A DNA stretch of 29,291 nt. Origin: Candidatus Omnitrophota bacterium (lineage in GTDB: Bacteria; Omnitrophota; Omnitrophia; Omnitrophales; Aquincolibacteriaceae). A model generated the notes under the pieces. It did no database searches, was not told the DNA's origin, and worked only from the letters and a program-made list of their open reading frames with translations. The stretch covers positions 1 to 29,291 of the forward strand of contig JBAXGK010000001.1 in assembly GCA_037139435.1 (NCBI GenBank), given 5' to 3'. The position numbers and the translations under genes were made by a program. Of the stretch, positions 21,331 to 29,122 are shown piece by piece. The number at the start of each line of letters is the position of its first letter. Within the stretch, counting starts at the first letter, position 1.

Positions 21331-21783
21331 ATGATATCTAACAAGACAAAATACGCTCTTAAAGCCGTTCTGATGCTGACGGGGAAATATGCCTCGAAGG
21401 AGCCTGTTCTGATCGCCGAGATCGCAGAAAAAGAGTCGATTCCGAAGAAATTCCTGGAGTCGATCCTTCTGGAGCTCAGGAATAAAGGACTCCTGCAGAG
21501 CAAGAAGGGAAAGGGTGGCGGGTATCTTTTGGCACGCTCACCGGACCAGATCAGCTTTGGGGAAGTGATCGGGATCTTCGAGAATCCTTTTGGGGCGCTG
21601 CCTTGCCTGGACGTGAAGGCGAATCGCCGGTGCGATGAATGTAAAAGAGGTAGCGCCTGCGGGATCCAAATGGTGATGCAGGAAGTCTACCGGACGACTT
21701 CGAGCATTCTGAACATTACGACTTTTAAAGACGTCTATGATCGAATGCGAAATACGAACCAGGAAGCTATGTATTTCATATAA
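21331..21783 (+). CDS. Rrf2 family transcriptional regulator (CymR/IscR-like)
   Basis: KTKYALKA, IPKKFLESILLELRNKGLLQSKKGKGGGYLLARSPDQI; Cys pattern C-X8-C-X2-C-X5-C. Confidence 0.93.
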   Translation: MISNKTKYALKAVLMLTGKYASKEPVLIAEIAEKESIPKKFLESILLELRNKGLLQSKKGKGGGYLLARSPDQISFGEVIGIFENPFGALPCLDVKANRRCDECKRGSACGIQMVMQEVYRTTSSILNITTFKDVYDRMRNTNQEAMYFI

Positions 21784-21793
21784 CTAAAACGAA

Positions 21794-23145
<1,352 letters not shown>

Positions 23146-23388: not shown

Positions 23389-23467
23389 CTACCGGACCAC
23401 CGGCTGACACAATGAAGTAACAATCAAAATTAAATTTTCGCCTTTCCGACCCGACCACGGGATGACA
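23389..23467 (+). promoter_or_regulatory. Pair of ACCA-loop mini-hairpins (candidate RNA regulatory element)
   Basis: CTACCGGACCACCGGCTGACA (23389-23409) and CGACCCGACCACGGGATGACA (23447-23467); 17/21 identical, with one compensatory stem pair. Confidence 0.45.
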
Positions 23468-23500
23468 GGGCACACAAAATCGGACAAGGAGAAAACTAAA

Positions 23501-24394
23501 ATGAAGAAGTTCATTGTGTTGGGGCTTTTGGCCTCTTTCGTCAGCTGGCAGTTTACCGGAATTTCGTATGCTGGAGTTCCCTTAAACAATCTGGAAGGTG
23601 TCGGAGGTATTGCGTTCAACCCTTTGGCGTATCTGGCCAATGCGGGAAGTAAATGGAAGAAAGAAACGCCGGTATCACCTGAAGCAGGAAAGCCCGGAAC
23701 AGAAAAGAAGGCTTTTAACGATTATGGGTTGCTGGAAAATGTCAGCAAGCCCCAGGGCGGAGTGTGGTACGTGCGTTTGCCCCAGTCTCACGTGGATTGG
23801 ACCGCGCTGGGCTCGGCTTTCTCGCTGTACGACCGGGTCGAAGTTTCGTATGGGTGGGAGGCGGTGGCGCAGCATGGTGCTAAGACGATCTATAAGAACA
23901 ATGTCGGCACCAAATTGCTTTTGGTTCCGGAGAATGCCGGAGATCATAAGTTTATCCCAGCGATCTCGATCGGCGGTATTCTGAAGAATACTGACTATGT
24001 ACCGTCAGGGACAAAACATGTGGGCGTTGACGCGTATTTGGTCGCAACGAAGCTGATCAAAGAAACGCCGCTTCCGGTGCTGTTGTCGGGAGGTTTGTTG
24101 GCCACGAACAGCCGTACAACCGGTGTTTTTGGATATGATCCCAATTACCGGTTCACATGGTTCGGGAATGTGGACCTGATCGTTCTTAAGAATTTGGCGG
24201 TGGGTTATGAATACAAGCAAGGCGCCAAATTCCACGGTTGGCACGATGCGGATTATCAAGACGTTCATGCGGCGTGGTTCATCAATGACAAGTGGACCCT
24301 CGTCGGCGCTTGGGTCTATGCGGGCAAAGCCAAGAGCAGTAAGGAGGTCGGACTGGGGGATGGTTTTACAGCCAGCTTGCATTACGCTTTTTAA
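23501..24394 (+). CDS. DUF3034-like predicted outer-membrane beta-barrel protein
   Basis: AAGGAG RBS; signal peptide; GVPLNNLEGVGGIAFNP; alternating amphipathic strands; C-terminal aromatic signature LHYAF. Confidence 0.7.
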   Translation: MKKFIVLGLLASFVSWQFTGISYAGVPLNNLEGVGGIAFNPLAYLANAGSKWKKETPVSPEAGKPGTEKKAFNDYGLLENVSKPQGGVWYVRLPQSHVDWTALGSAFSLYDRVEVSYGWEAVAQHGAKTIYKNNVGTKLLLVPENAGDHKFIPAISIGGILKNTDYVPSGTKHVGVDAYLVATKLIKETPLPVLLSGGLLATNSRTTGVFGYDPNYRFTWFGNVDLIVLKNLAVGYEYKQGAKFHGWHDADYQDVHAAWFINDKWTLVGAWVYAGKAKSSKEVGLGDGFTASLHYAF

Positions 24395-24442: not shown

Positions 24443-25375
24443 ATGGGAATCTATCAAGATATTACAAAAACCGTTGGAAATACGCCGCTGGTGCGCTTGA
24501 ACCGTCTGACAACGGGACTTGCCGCGACGGTGCTGGTAAAACTGGAATCGGCGAACCCGCTTTCAAGCGTCAAGGACAGGATCGGTGTCGCGATGGTCGA
24601 GGCCGCCGAGAAAGCCGGGAAGCTCAAGCCTGGCAGTGTCATTGTGGAGCCTACGAGCGGAAACACAGGGATCGCTCTGGCGTTTGTTGCTGCGGCGCGA
24701 GGGTACAGGCTTATTCTAACCATGCCGGAGACCATGAGCGTCGAACGTCGCCAGCTTTTGAAGATCCTGGGTGCGGAAGTGGTTCTGACCGAGGGGGCAC
24801 AGGGCATGCGAGGTGCGGTCGAAAAAGCTGAGGAGATCGCGAAGAAGGTTCCCGGAAGTTTTATTCCGCAACAGTTCAACAACCCTGCGAATGCGGAGGT
24901 CCACCGGAAAACGACGGCTGAAGAGATCTGGAAAGATACGGACGGAGCTGTAGATATTTTTATCGCCGGGGTTGGGACAGGCGGTACGCTGACCGGCGTA
25001 GGCGAAATCCTGAAACAAAGAAAACCCTCGGCAAAAATCATCGCTGTGGAGCCGGTCGACTCTCCCGTATTGTCGGGCGGAAAAGCAGGACCTCACAAGA
25101 TCCAAGGGATTGGCGCCGGGTTTGTCCCCGGGGTTTTGAACACGAAGGTCTACGATGAGATCATCAAGGTTCGTCATGAGGATGCCGGGGAAGTAGCCCG
25201 TCAGTTGGCACGCCAGGAAGGGATCCTGGGAGGAATCTCGGCCGGCGCGAATGTTTGGGCCGCGCTGGAAGTGGCGAAACGGCCGGAGTCCAAAGGCAAG
25301 ACGATTGTGACCGTCATCTGCGATAGCGGAGAAAGATATCTCTCGACCTGGCTCTTTCAGGAATTCGCGGGTTGA
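24443..25375 (+). CDS. cysK: Cysteine synthase A
   Basis: [59 protein letters not shown]. Confidence 0.97.
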
Positions 25376-25615: not shown

Positions 25616-26344
25616 ATGGAAAATCTTAAAGCATTCAATCTAAATTTGGCGGGAAAGGGGCCCGAGGATGTTTTGTCATGGGCCATCGGCCATTTCGGGC
25701 CGGACAAGGTCGCTCTGGCGTCAAGTCTTGGGGCGGAGGATCAGGTCCTGACGGATATGCTGCTCAAGATCGATCCAAGTGCAATCGTTTTTACAATTGA
25801 CACGGGGCGGTTGCCTCAGGAAACGCTTGAGTGCTTAAAGGACACAGAAAAAAAACACAGTTTCAAATACCACGTTTATGCTCCAGAGGTTGGCGCAGTA
25901 AAAAAAATGGTAGCGGAGAAGGGGCTGGATCTTTTTTATGAAAGTGTCGAGAACCGGAAACTTTGTTGCCATATCCGGAAGGTCGAGCCGCTCAAGCGCG
26001 CGCTGCAAGGTCTCAAGGTCTGGATCTGCGGTCTGCGTCGCGAGCAATCCGTGACGCGCGCGGACCTGAATGTTATCGAATGGGATGAAGCGAACGGTCT
26101 TTATAAGATCAATCCGCTGATTGATTGGACGGAAAAGCAGGTTTGGGATTATGTTCATGCCGAAAAGATTCCTTATAACAAGTTGCATGATCAGGGATAT
26201 CCGAGTATCGGTTGCGCTCCGTGCACGCGGGCGGTGAAGCCAGGTGAGGATGTTCGTGCCGGACGGTGGTGGTGGGAGAGCCCGGATAAAAAAGAATGCG
26301 GCTTACATTTTAAGGACGGCAAAGTTGTGAGGAAAGGTTCGTAA
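25616..26344 (+). CDS. cysH: Assimilatory APS reductase (Fe-S type)
   Basis: ATG 25616; [12 protein letters not shown] (117-118) plus SIGCAPC (200-203), i.e. CC-X81-CXXC; [13 protein letters not shown]. Confidence 0.95.
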
Positions 26345-27225
26345 TGGACACTTTAAGAAAGCTTGAAGCGCAGAGCATTCATATTTTGCGGGAAGCGTAC
26401 AAGGAATTCAAAAGCCTTGTCATGCTTTGGTCGATCGGTAAGGACAGCACGGTTCTGCTCTGGCTGGCCCGGAAGGCATTCTTTGGTCATGTGCCGCTCC
26501 CGCTCCTCCATATCGACACGCATTACAAGATCCCGGAAATGATCGCCTATCGCGACAAGCTGGCCGCAGATTGGCATCTTAATATTTTGTACGGCGAGAA
26601 TGCGCAGGCGCTTGCGGCGAAGCAGACGTTTCCGGATGGGAAAGTCGATCGCTTGACTTGCTGCAAATCCCTGAAAAGCGAGGCGCTCAAACATACGCTT
26701 TCTGGCGAATGGCCGCGTTACGCGTTCGACCATAATCTTGGGAAATATATACAGGAGAAGAACCCGCAGCCTTATACCGGCGTGATCGTGGGGGTTCGTG
26801 CGGATGAAGAAGGGAGCCGCTCCAAGGAGCGCTATTTTTCGCCGCGCGATAAACAAAGCGATTGGAATATCGGCGATCAGCCGCCTGAGCTCTGGAGCCA
26901 GTACAAGACCGATTTCGCGCCCGGAACCCATGTGCGCGTGCATCCGCTCCTCGATTGGACTGAGCTCAATATTTGGGAATACATCGATCGTGAAAATATT
27001 CCGATCATTCCGCTTTATTTCAATAACGGGAAGGGGCTTCGTTACCGCTCGCTCGGCTGCTATCCCTGCACGGGATCGGTGAAGTCGGATGCACGGAACG
27101 TGAAGGAGATCCTTTCAGAACTCAAAACCGGAAAATTCTCGAACATCGCAGAGCGCTCCGGTCGGGCCCAGGATAAAGAAGACGGCGGCGGGCTCGAGAC
27201 GCTTCGCCGCGAAGGGTATATGTGA
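26344..27225 (+). CDS. cysD: Sulfate adenylyltransferase subunit 2
   Basis: [60 protein letters not shown]. Confidence 0.93.
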
Positions 27226-27331: not shown

Positions 27332-29122
27332 ATGGACAGAATGAACATTGTGATCGTCGGGCACGTGGACCACGGCAAAAGCACTGTGATCGGCCGGCTT
27401 TTGGCCGATACGGGATCTTTGCCTGAGGGGAAACTTGAACAGGTCAAAGCGACTTGCGCGAAGAACGCGAAACCTTTCGAATACGCGTTTCTTCTCGATG
27501 CTCTCAAAGATGAGCAATCTCAGGGGATTACGATCGATGCCGCACGTTGCTTCTTCCACACGAAGAAGCGCGAATACATTGTGATCGATGCTCCGGGGCA
27601 TATTGAATTTTTGAAGAACATGATCACGGGTGCTTCGCGGGCCGAAGCGGCACTCCTCGTGATCGATGCGAAGGAAGGCATTCTCGAAAATTCTAAGAGA
27701 CACGGTTATCTGCTTTCCATGCTCGGGATTCGCCAGGTGGCGGTGCTTGTGAACAAGATGGATCTCGTGGAATACAGCGAGCAGGTCTTCCGGGCGATCG
27801 AAAAAGAATACGGCGATTTTTTGAAAGGGTTCAGCATCCAACCGAATGCTTTCATCCCAATGAGCGCGATGAACGGTGTGAACATGATCGCCAAGTCACC
27901 GGAAATGCCGTGGTATTCCGGGCTTTCGGTATTGGAACAGTTGGACTCTTTTCATCATGAAACCACGAGTGAAGCGTATCCCTTCCGTTTTCCGGTGCAG
28001 GACATTTACAAATTCACAGAGCTTGCCGATGACCGGCGCATCATGGCCGGAACGATCGCCACGGGAACGATCCGGGTCGGTGACGAAGTGGTGTTTCTTC
28101 CTTCGAAAAAAAGAACGCGGATCAAAACGATCGAAGAGTTCAATGCGCCGTCGAAGCAAGAAGCCTCCGCCGGGGAAGCGATCGGTTTTACGACCGAGAC
28201 CCAACTTTATATCAAGCCAGGCGAGCTGATGGTGAAAACATCGGATCCTCTGCCGTCCGTGAGCACGCGTTTTAAGGCGAATATTTTCTGGATGGGCCAT
28301 GCACCGCTTGTGAGAGGCAAAAAGTACAAATTAAAACTCGGTGCGAGCCGTCCTTCGGTTCGACTCGTCGAAGTTCTGAATGTTCTGGACAGCTCGGAGC
28401 TGACTTCGATCACCAACAAGGCACAAGTGGATCGGCATGATGTTGCGGAGTGCATTTTTGAAACGGGTAAACCGCTCGCCTTCGACAAGGCGGGCGATCT
28501 TCGTGAAACAGGCCGTTTTGTGATCGTGGATAATTATGAGATCGCAGGCGCCGGGATCGTTTTGGAGGCGCTTTCGGAGGATCGGTCGATTCTGAAGGAT
28601 CATGTGCGCCATCGCGAGCAGATCTGGGAGCGGAGCGGTGTCAGTGCTTCGGAAAGAGGCGGGATCTATGGTCACCGGCCGGCATTCATCCTGATCTCCG
28701 GCAAGGTCAATACCGGCAAGCAGAAGATCGCACGGGAGCTTGAAGCGCGTCTCCTGAAGCAAGGAGTGAAGGCTTTTTATCTCGGCATTTCAAATCTTGT
28801 TTCGGGTCTCGACAGCGAATTGCCTCAAGGAGTCGATTCGCAGGAAGAGATCGTCCGGCATCTCGGAGAACTCGGCAGGATCATTGCCGAATCCGGGCAG
28901 GTTTTTATCACGACCGCATCGGATCTGGATGATTTTGATATCGAAACCCTCCGAATCTTGAACAGTCCGAATGAGGTTTGGGTGATCCAGGTGGGGCCCA
29001 ATACTTTCTCTGGGTTTAAACCGTCTTTTGTTTTAAAGGAAAATGAATCTCTGGAAGCGGCGGTCGAGAAGATCGGCTCTTTTCTCAAGAAAAAAGAGAT
29101 CATTCTGGAATATTATCTCTAA
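27332..29122 (+). CDS. cysN: Sulfate adenylyltransferase subunit 1 (GTPase) with a degenerate C-terminal APS-kinase-like domain
   Basis: [34 protein letters not shown]; C-terminal CysC-like domain with eroded P-loop. Confidence 0.94.

What the first reader, a model, noticed from the sequence alone, without database searches (positions are those of the whole stretch)
26659..27069. CysD retains an APS-reductase-like CC...CXXC cysteine set
Seen: CysD has TCC (C106, C107) and SLGCYPC (C239, C242). The adjacent CysH has CC (117-118) and CAPC (200-203). Established: CC-X~80-CXXC ligates the 4Fe-4S cluster of APS reductases, CysD belongs to the same PAPS-reductase fold family, and the enteric CysD as I recall lacks this set. 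Inference: this CysD subtype may bind an Fe-S cluster or metal, an ancestral or redox-regulated ATP sulfurylase. Spacing is longer (131 aa), partly from a visible insertion ([23 protein letters not shown]).
Basis: partly seen in the sequence, partly recalled or inferred. Interest (0 to 1): 0.6.

Follow-up and report, generated by a model that had tools for sequence, protein, structure and literature searches.

The report
CysD keeping APS-reductase iron-sulfur cysteines
This gene encodes the catalytic subunit (CysD) of the GTP-coupled sulfate-activating enzyme, and it keeps the four cysteines that hold an iron-sulfur cluster in its cousin APS reductase; this is the inherited, majority state of CysD across many phyla, so the cofactor-free E. 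coli enzyme looks like the exception, but nobody has yet shown that a cluster is bound.

Summary
Observation confirmed exactly. CysD (26344-27225, 293 aa) has only four cysteines, C106, C107, C239 and C242 (nt 26659-27069). Profile, multiple-sequence and structure alignments all place them on the [4Fe-4S] ligands of solved APS reductases (M. tuberculosis C140/C141/C223/C226).

The protein is a real CysD. It scores above the NF003587 cut-off, has the PP-loop, matches 1ZUN chain A at Z 24.8, and sits in a cysK-cysH-cysD-cysN operon. It is not a hidden reductase, because it has no C-terminal catalytic Cys.

The four Cys are invariant in 80/80 orthologues from at least 17 phyla. They are also kept in two other CysD architectures: short forms, and 301-aa forms that carry the "canonical" 35-aa insert.

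On trees rooted with CysH, the 4-Cys forms are basal and paraphyletic. The Cys-less E. coli/Pseudomonas type is compatible with a single loss, and at least two further losses occurred elsewhere.

The most likely reading (about 0.6) is a non-redox [4Fe-4S] cluster inherited with the APS/sulfate pocket. Metal binding, and any redox regulation, remain untested.

Seven literature searches found no description of this. The scan has flagged the same feature before on other DNA, with the same reading. I rate it a new variant of a known kind, interest about 0.55.

The parts
26344..27225 (+). cysD, the sulfate adenylyltransferase small (catalytic) subunit, 293 aa, of the 4-Cys '293-aa' type
   Evidence: NF003587 scores 348 bits (cut-off 195) and PF01507 133 bits. 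The AF2 model has pLDDT 90. The model matches 1zun_A at Z 24.8, rmsd 1.4 A.
26431..26448 (+). PP-loop S30-I-G-K-D-S35, the ATP pyrophosphatase signature
   Evidence: Read directly from the sequence. S30, G32, K33, D34 and S35 are invariant in alignment A2.
26659..26664 (+). C106-C107, a tandem Cys at the N-terminus of helix 103-120; proposed cluster ligands 1 and 2
   Evidence: These residues align to C140/C141 of 7LHR and to the CC of 2GOY (ligands named in PMC8173546). They are invariant in 80/80 loci.
26674..26676 (+). K111 (four residues after the CC), equivalent to the sulfate-contacting K144/K145 of APS reductases
   Evidence: K111 is nearly invariant in all CysD types and in CysH. The role of K145 is described in PMC8173546.
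26704..26772 (+). 23-aa insertion (residues 121-143, GEWPRY...NPQP), predicted to form a beta-hairpin directly after the CC helix
   Evidence: It is present only in the 293-aa clade. The model shows strands 126-129 and 134-137 with pLDDT about 94. It co-occurs with a CysN that carries a degenerate kinase-like domain.
27058..27069 (+). C239-Y-P-C242 in a loop between strands 232-234 and 245-247; proposed cluster ligands 3 and 4
   Evidence: These residues align to C223/C226 of 7LHR and to the GCePC of 2GOY. The structural superposition on 7lhs_B is in the same register, with an offset of 16.
27154..27165 (+). R271-S-G-R274, resembling the R(S/E/A)GR sulfate-binding motif of APS reductases
   Evidence: R271, G273 and R274 are invariant in A2. 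The motif is described in PMC8173546. Homology of this motif is my inference and was not tested.
25616..26344 (+). cysH, an Fe-S-type APS reductase (CC 117-118, CxxC 200-203, ECGLH); its TAA stop overlaps the cysD ATG by one base (TAATG)
   Evidence: TIGR02055 scores 267 bits (cut-off 235). The sequence was read.
27332..29122 (+). cysN, the GTPase subunit, with a C-terminal APS-kinase-like domain whose P-loop is degenerate (GKVNTGKQ at residue 457)
   Evidence: TIGR02034 scores 348 bits, and PF01583 only 34 bits over profile positions 2-80 of 152.
24443..25375 (+). cysK, cysteine synthase A
   Evidence: TIGR01139 scores 473 bits.

Best explanation
The gene is an ordinary, functional CysD: the PP-loop subunit that, with the GTPase CysN, adenylylates sulfate to APS. 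It sits in a PAPS-independent assimilation operon, cysK-cysH(APS reductase)-cysD-cysN.

Its four cysteines are the same four positions that ligate the [4Fe-4S] cluster in the homologous APS reductases. They were inherited from the common ancestor of CysD and CysH.

They most likely still bind a [4Fe-4S]2+ cluster. That cluster would sit next to the pocket that holds sulfate, or the sulfuryl group of APS, together with the conserved K111 and the R271-x-G-R274 motif. It would act as a structural and electrostatic organiser of the pocket, as argued for APS reductase, and not as an electron carrier, because adenylyl transfer is not a redox reaction.

The textbook E. coli/Pseudomonas CysD is a derived form that replaced three of the four Cys (H, T and L).

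Shown here: identity as CysD, positional homology of the Cys, co-conservation, and ancestral polarity. Inferred: that a cluster is bound, and what it does.
For: Identity as CysD:
- NF003587 scores 348 bits against a cut-off of 195.
- The model matches 1zun_A at Z 24.8, rmsd 1.4 A over 192 residues.
- CysN lies next to CysD in 76 of 80 orthologous loci.
- The genome (93% complete) has only these two PAPS_reduct genes and no intact APS kinase.

Positional homology:
- A CysD profile puts CC on C140/C141 and GCxPC on C223/C226 of 7LHR, and on the same motifs of 2GOY. These are the crystallographic ligands (PMC8173546).
- MAFFT L-INS-i independently puts the CC-K-C-C of nine CysH and all 4-Cys CysD sequences in the same columns.
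- The AF2 model (pLDDT 90) superposes on 7lhs_B at Z 18.3, rmsd 2.3 A, model 6-247 on chain 26-231, the same register as the sequence alignment.

Co-conservation:
- CCKCC is found in 80/80 loci from at least 17 phyla and in 30/30 Omnitrophota loci of three architectures.
- All 120 homologues of the 301-aa form gave only Cys at every motif position that a regex could read (108 read at all four).
- In the first, quick alignment of the 50%-identity representatives, 36 carry all four Cys. Most other patterns are fragments, the canonical HTCL/YTCL type, or a short Cys-less class.
- Only 11 columns separate long 4-Cys CysD from canonical Cys-less CysD, and 3 of them are these Cys.

Polarity:
- On trees rooted on CysH, CysD is monophyletic (100) and the 4-Cys forms are basal and paraphyletic.
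- Holding the canonical Cys-less forms as one clade is not rejected (p-AU 0.82).

Context conservation: K111 matches K144/145, which contacts the APS sulfate.
Against: No experiment and no metal-aware model supports cluster binding.

The reaction needs no redox cofactor, and cofactor-free CysD enzymes work well. Several lineages have lost the Cys without losing the gene.

R143 of APS reductase, described (from memory) as a cluster neighbour, is L110 here.

C239 is also kept in the Cys-less canonical forms, so at least that Cys has a role independent of a cluster.

The 4-Cys form also occurs in Gemmatimonadota, usually aerobes, so there is no simple link to anoxia.
Confidence: 0.6

Rival explanations
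1. The cluster is bound but acts mainly as a regulator. Loss or oxidation of an O2-, NO- or iron-sensitive [4Fe-4S] cluster would switch off the costly first step of sulfate assimilation, giving a redox- or iron-gated ATP sulfurylase.
For: The ligand set is the same as in the best explanation. Simulations argue that in APS reductase the cluster's redox state modulates K144 and substrate binding (bioRxiv 10.64898/2026.09.04.749436). The operon lies downstream of an Rrf2 regulator that has four Cys. Many carriers come from low-oxygen habitats.
Against: There is no direct evidence. APS reductases with the same site work in aerobes such as Pseudomonas and Mycobacterium. The 4-Cys CysD is also common in Gemmatimonadota. 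A cluster that fails under sulfur or iron shortage would block the very pathway that relieves sulfur shortage.
Confidence: 0.15
2. The four Cys bind a structural Zn2+ or another single metal ion rather than an Fe-S cluster.
For: Four-Cys sites in the wider PP-loop/adenine-nucleotide hydrolase superfamily can be Zn sites (from memory: QueC, and the zinc fingers of TtuA). The Foldseek and VIA lists include such relatives.
Against: The positions and local motifs (CC-x3-K and S-[LI]-G-C-x-P-C-T) are those of a crystallographically defined [4Fe-4S] site. Two adjacent Cys are an unusual pair of ligands for a single tetrahedral Zn (general knowledge).
Confidence: 0.12
3. No metal is bound. The Cys are conserved for thiol chemistry, such as regulatory disulfides or persulfide/sulfite sensing, or simply for packing.
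For: C239 persists in the cluster-less canonical CysD. Plant sulfate-assimilation enzymes are thiol-regulated (PMC9426629, title and abstract only).
Against: Three Cys are lost together in every loss lineage seen (HT..L, RA..EI, VT..I), which fits a single shared function for the set. They have been invariant since the split from CysH, which uses them as cluster ligands.
Confidence: 0.08
4. The protein is a hybrid or cryptic sulfonucleotide reductase that makes sulfite itself.
For: It has the cluster ligand set and the K and RxGR pocket residues of APS reductases.
Against: It has no fifth Cys and no C-terminal ECG[LI]H motif; it ends in the CysD-type REGYM. TIGR02055 scores 43 bits against a cut-off of 235. 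A complete APS reductase is encoded immediately upstream. CysN is the constant partner.
Confidence: 0.03

Closest known systems
CysD of the GTP-regulated ATP sulfurylase CysDN (E. coli K-12 b2752; P. syringae, PDB 1ZUN chain A)
   Same: It shares the family (NF003587, PF01507), the PP-loop, the RxDEE and ERxGR motifs and the C-terminal GY[MF]. It has the same CysN partner and operon logic. The fold matches at Z 24.8, rmsd 1.4 A. Identity to E. coli CysD is 38%.
   Different: The E. coli and Pseudomonas proteins have H-T in place of C106-C107 and L in place of C242. They carry a 35-36-aa insert before the GC..L loop and lack the 23-aa insert at 121-143. The window protein scores below the cut-off of the narrower TIGR02039 model (248 against 396.6 bits). 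1ZUN chain A has no modelled residues beyond about 211, so it shows nothing about the equivalent loop.
Assimilatory [4Fe-4S] APS reductase (CysH; M. tuberculosis 7LHR/7LHS, P. aeruginosa 2GOY)
   Same: It shares the fold (Z 18-19, rmsd 2.3-2.9 A). The CC...CxxC ligand positions, the Lys four residues after the CC, and an RxGR-like motif are the same.
   Different: It lacks the C-terminal catalytic Cys (ECGLH). The ligand spacing is 131 residues rather than 81. It has CysD-specific segments and the CysN-binding C-terminus. It catalyses adenylyl transfer, not reduction.
301-aa 'long' 4-Cys CysD of Omnitrophota, Elusimicrobia and Armatimonadota (for example L081, P0297-P0416)
   Same: It has all four Cys and K111, and it is paired with CysN.
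   Different: It has the canonical 35-aa insert, the LYSxGKDS motif and a GYF end. Its partner is a CysNC with an intact GLSGSGKS kinase P-loop. It is only 36-38% identical to the window protein. It shows that gaining the insert and losing the Cys were separate events.

Membership tests
CysD (sulfate adenylyltransferase subunit 2) | Score above the curated family cut-off | tested here: met
   NF003587 scores 347.9 bits against a cut-off of 195. The narrower models TIGR02039 (248 against 396.6) and NF009214 (245 against 413) are not reached.
CysD (sulfate adenylyltransferase subunit 2) | PP-loop SxGKDS and the CysD-specific motifs (RxDEE, ERxGR..D, C-terminal GY[MF]) | tested here: met
   S30-IGKDS, R152-ADEE, E270-RSGRAQD and G291-YM are present, and most are invariant in A2.
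CysD (sulfate adenylyltransferase subunit 2) | Encoded next to, and working with, the GTPase CysN | tested here: met
   cysN starts 107 nt downstream. A CysN hit lies in 76 of 80 orthologous loci. A physical complex was not tested.
CysD (sulfate adenylyltransferase subunit 2) | Fold of solved CysD | tested here: met
   The model matches 1zun_A at Z 24.8, rmsd 1.4 A, with 192 residues aligned.
CysD (sulfate adenylyltransferase subunit 2) | ATP sulfurylase activity stimulated by GTP hydrolysis | not testable with these tools
   This needs an enzyme assay.
Assimilatory APS reductase (Fe-S CysH) | CC...CxxC cluster ligands | tested here: met
   C106, C107, C239 and C242 fall in the ligand columns of 7LHR and 2GOY.
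Assimilatory APS reductase (Fe-S CysH) | C-terminal catalytic Cys in ECG[LI]H | tested here: not met
   There are only four Cys, none after residue 242, and the C-terminus reads ...LRREGYM.
Assimilatory APS reductase (Fe-S CysH) | Score above the family cut-off | tested here: not met
   TIGR02055 scores 43.3 against 235.3, and NF002537 scores 63.9 against 154.
[4Fe-4S] protein | Four ligands close enough in space to hold one cluster | tested here: inconclusive
Indirect support: the model superposes on the cluster-bearing 7lhs_B at rmsd 2.3 A over a range that includes all four positions, in the same register.
[4Fe-4S] protein | Fe and acid-labile sulfide, and UV-vis/EPR signature | not testable with these tools
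   This needs anaerobic purification and spectroscopy.

The most novel reading that the evidence does not exclude
Most CysDN-type ATP sulfurylases in nature are iron-sulfur enzymes whose cluster is required for sulfate activation and is oxidant-labile. On this reading the cofactor-free E. coli/Pseudomonas enzyme is an adaptation that freed the pathway from Fe-S dependence, parallel to the APS-to-PAPS reductase transition. The cluster-bearing CysD and CysH, which here have overlapping genes and elsewhere are fused, may also form an APS-channelling unit.
Probability: 0.3. Interest if true: 0.75.

Novelty: new variant of a known kind. Interest (0 to 1): 0.55.

Why it matters
Everything known about how CysDN works comes from Cys-less enzymes (E. 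coli, Pseudomonas, and from memory rhizobial NodPQ).

If the 4-Cys forms bind a cluster, the first step of assimilatory sulfate reduction would depend on Fe-S in a large share of bacterial and archaeal lineages. That would link sulfur assimilation to iron and oxygen status. It would also show that the cluster site predates the split between the sulfate-activating enzyme and the APS-reducing enzyme.

It further offers a clean natural experiment. The long 4-Cys and canonical forms differ at only 11 diagnostic columns, so the role of the site could be tested by a few substitutions.

The claim is cheap to test with standard anaerobic biochemistry.

Tried and rejected
1. I first thought the canonical 35-aa insert replaced the lost cluster. 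I rejected this because the 301-aa forms have both the insert and all four Cys.

2. A strict link to anaerobes is not supported. 16 of the 80 best loci are Gemmatimonadota.

3. A hidden reductase is rejected: there is no catalytic Cys and the APS-reductase cut-offs are not reached.

4. Direct measurement of Cys-Cys distances was not possible. Structure prediction gives no coordinates and nothing appears in /data.

5. The free quick tree nested the long 4-Cys forms among the canonical ones, which would imply several losses or a regain. The constrained tree has higher likelihood and the AU test does not reject one canonical clade, so I do not claim multiple losses there.

6. Seven literature searches found no paper describing cysteines or a cluster in CysD. 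Subscription journals are not covered.

7. Rfam found no riboswitch or other RNA in the window.

8. The listing of cluster members gave almost no taxonomy for the short and Cys-less clusters.

9. Many odd Cys patterns among the 50%-identity representatives (CCCR, CCCA, CC-A and similar) belong to fragments or to ORFs that match the query over only part of its length. I left P0122, P0123, P0126, P0127, P0129, P0146, P0151, P0153, P0156, P0193, P0196, P0220 and P0241 out of the trees. Six rows without a PP-loop were also left out (P0175, P0176, P0195, P0222, P0236, P0240).

Full report
**1. What is in the window**

The + strand carries a sulfur-assimilation cluster:
- an Rrf2 regulator (21331-21783)
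- a Cys/Met PLP enzyme of the MetY type (21853-23145)
- a DUF3034 protein (23462-24394)
- cysK (24443-25375)
- cysH (25616-26344)
- cysD (26344-27225)
- cysN with a C-terminal APS-kinase-like domain (27332-29122)
- an ORF that runs off the end of the window

The cysH stop and the cysD start overlap by one base (TAATG). Names that sources give to near-identical proteins place the window in Omnitrophota.

**2. The observation**

CysD has 293 residues and exactly four cysteines: C106, C107, C239 and C242. Their codons span 26659-27069, which are precisely the finding's coordinates. With its start at 25616, CysH has CC at 117-118, CAPC at 200-203 and a C-terminal ECGLH. It scores above the cut-off of the Fe-S APS-reductase model TIGR02055 (267 against 235 bits).

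E. coli K-12 CysD has H-T at the CC position and C..L at the CxxC position. P. syringae CysD (1ZUN) is the same.

**3. It is a CysD, not a reductase**

- NF003587 is passed (348 against 195 bits), although the narrower TIGR02039 is not.
- The PP-loop, Rx[11 protein letters not shown] and the C-terminal GYM are present.
- The AlphaFold model is confident (pLDDT 90). It matches 1zun_A at Z 24.8, rmsd 1.4 A.
- There is no fifth Cys and no ECGLH tail, and the APS-reductase models are far below cut-off.
- The genome (93% complete) holds only these two PAPS_reduct genes. Its only APS-kinase-like sequence is the degenerate CysN tail.

The pathway is therefore sulfate -> APS (CysDN) -> sulfite (Fe-S CysH), without PAPS.

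**4. The cysteines are the APS-reductase ligand positions**

- A profile of 4-Cys CysD sequences aligns CC to C140/C141 and GCxPC to C223/C226 of M. tuberculosis APS reductase (7LHR). It aligns to the same motifs of P. aeruginosa 2GOY.
- The 7LHR paper states that those four residues coordinate the [4Fe-4S] cluster in a C-C-X81-C-X2-C motif (PMC8173546).
- MAFFT L-INS-i independently put the CC-K-C-C of nine CysH and all 4-Cys CysD sequences in the same columns.
- The Lys four residues after the CC (K111) matches K144/K145, which contacts the APS sulfate.
- The model superposes on 7lhs_B at Z 18.3, rmsd 2.3 A, model 6-247 on chain 26-231. That offset of 16 is the one the sequence alignment requires for C239/C242 = C223/C226.

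I could not read coordinates. Spatial proximity is therefore inferred from this superposition and not measured.

**5. Co-conservation**

- In the 80 best loci from one genome per species, spanning at least 17 named phyla and including one cultured Clostridium, residues 106/107/111/239/242 are CCKCC in 80/80. 28 of these proteins have no other Cys.
- The first, quick alignment of the representatives of 50%-identity clusters gave 36 rows with all four Cys, a canonical class (HTCL/YTCL) that always carries the 36-aa insert, and a short Cys-less class.
- In Omnitrophota, 77 of 201 genomes have a CysD, and all 30 loci fetched are CCKCC.
- Twelve of those 30 are a 301-aa form with every 'canonical' hallmark (35-aa insert, LYSxGKDS, GYF end) plus all four Cys. 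Its 120 closest homologues show only Cys wherever the motif could be read.
- Only 11 alignment columns separate this long 4-Cys form from canonical CysD, and three of them are the Cys.

**6. Polarity**

On trees rooted on CysH, with the four Cys columns removed, CysD is monophyletic (SH-aLRT 100). 4-Cys lineages branch at the base and the insert-bearing clade is 100-supported, but the backbone is otherwise weak.

An AU test does not reject the canonical Cys-less forms as one clade (p 0.82), and the constrained tree is better than the free quick tree.

Because the outgroup and several ingroup lineages share the four positions, the 4-Cys state is ancestral. It was lost at least three times on these trees: in the canonical branch, in a short 'RAKEI' clade, and in P0142.

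**7. Three module types**

This goes beyond the finding.

| CysD type | Partner CysN | Evidence |
|---|---|---|
| Short 4-Cys, 266-275 aa | 405-437 aa, no C-terminal domain (11/11) | |
| 293 aa, 4-Cys, 23-aa insert at residues 121-143 | About 596 aa. 64 of the 69 CysN hits not cut by a contig end extend past residue 550. None of the hits that reach the Walker A position keeps GK[ST]. | |
| 301 aa, 4-Cys, canonical 35-aa insert | CysNC of 638-643 aa with GLSGSGKS (4/4) | |

It may be its docking surface, but each feature probably arose once, so this is weak evidence.

CysD is far more conserved across phyla (70-78% for all but the closest locus, L001 at 92%) than CysN (mostly 47-58%) or CysH (mostly 48-65%) in the same loci.

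**8. How it most likely works**

In APS reductase the cluster sits several angstroms from the sulfate of APS (8.5 A in 7LHS). It is thought to organise K144 and the substrate rather than carry electrons during S-sulfocysteine formation.

CysD binds the same adenylyl-sulfate moiety as its product, using the homologous Lys and an RxGR-like motif. The simplest reading is an inherited, non-redox [4Fe-4S] cluster that shapes the sulfate/APS pocket. A regulatory role, a Zn site, or thiol chemistry cannot be excluded.

Cys-less CysDs exist, including about 20 clusters of CysH-CysD fusions in which only the CysH half keeps its Cys. So the site is dispensable in some contexts.

**9. Novelty**

Seven full-text searches found no description of an Fe-S or Cys motif in CysD. 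Subscription journals are not covered.

The scan has flagged the same feature before on other DNA, and follow-up agents reached the same reading. I re-tested their main claims here and agree, with two refinements: the link to anoxia is loose, and the canonical insert predates the loss of the Cys.

Noticed in passing
window 27332-29122 (P-loop-like GKVNTGKQ at CysN residue 457, about nt 28700-28723): CysN carries a C-terminal APS-kinase-like domain with a degenerate Walker A motif. None of the orthologous CysN partners that reach this position keeps GK[ST]. The genome has no other APS-kinase hit.
   Followed up: partly
window 26704-26772; loci L112-L126 and L001-L080: The 23-aa CysD insert co-occurs with the dead-kinase CysN. 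Short 4-Cys CysDs pair with a CysN of 405-437 aa that lacks the domain. The 301-aa 4-Cys CysDs pair with a CysNC whose GLSGSGKS P-loop is intact. The insert may dock onto the dead-kinase domain.
   Followed up: partly
window 26342-26346; proteins P0125, P0417-P0434, P0447-P0468: cysH and cysD overlap (TAATG). Many database proteins are CysH-CysD fusions. In about 14 clusters both halves keep the cluster Cys. In about 20 clusters the CysD half has lost all four (RAKEI) while the CysH half keeps its own. This hints at a physical CysH-CysD unit.
   Followed up: partly
proteins P0140, P0158, P0436, P0438, P0441-P0444, P0448 and others: Some 4-Cys CysD genes contain a LAGLIDADG intein (Pfam PF14528/PF14890) that splits the PAPS_reduct domain. 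One is labelled as coming from a candidate division MSBL1 archaeon.
   Followed up: no
proteins P0152, P0159: These are APS kinase (CysC)-CysD fusion proteins with the 4-Cys set.
   Followed up: no
window 21331-21783: The Rrf2-family regulator at the head of the cluster has four Cys (C92, C101, C104, C110). This spacing is reminiscent of Fe-S-binding Rrf2 proteins such as IscR, so the operon may itself be under Fe-S-dependent control.
   Followed up: no
genomes G030, G032, G130, G174, G194, G198 versus G000, G024, G044, G062 (same genus g1): Species of one Omnitrophota genus carry either the 293-aa or the 301-aa CysD module, and a few genomes have more than one match. This suggests replacement of whole cysDN modules by transfer.
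   Followed up: no
loci L001-L080: Apart from the closest locus (L001, 92%), CysD is 70-78% identical across at least 17 phyla. The adjacent CysN is mostly 47-58% and CysH mostly 48-65% identical. That is an unusually slow-evolving subunit, or a sign of recent spread.
   Followed up: partly
window 23462-24394: A 310-aa protein with an N-terminal hydrophobic stretch that looks like a signal peptide (by eye) and a DUF3034 domain lies between the metY-like gene and cysK. It has no obvious link to sulfur assimilation.
   Followed up: no
PDB 1zun_A: The solved canonical CysD chain has only 204 modelled residues, ending near residue 211. The region equivalent to the CxxC loop is not visible in the only CysD structure.
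   Followed up: no
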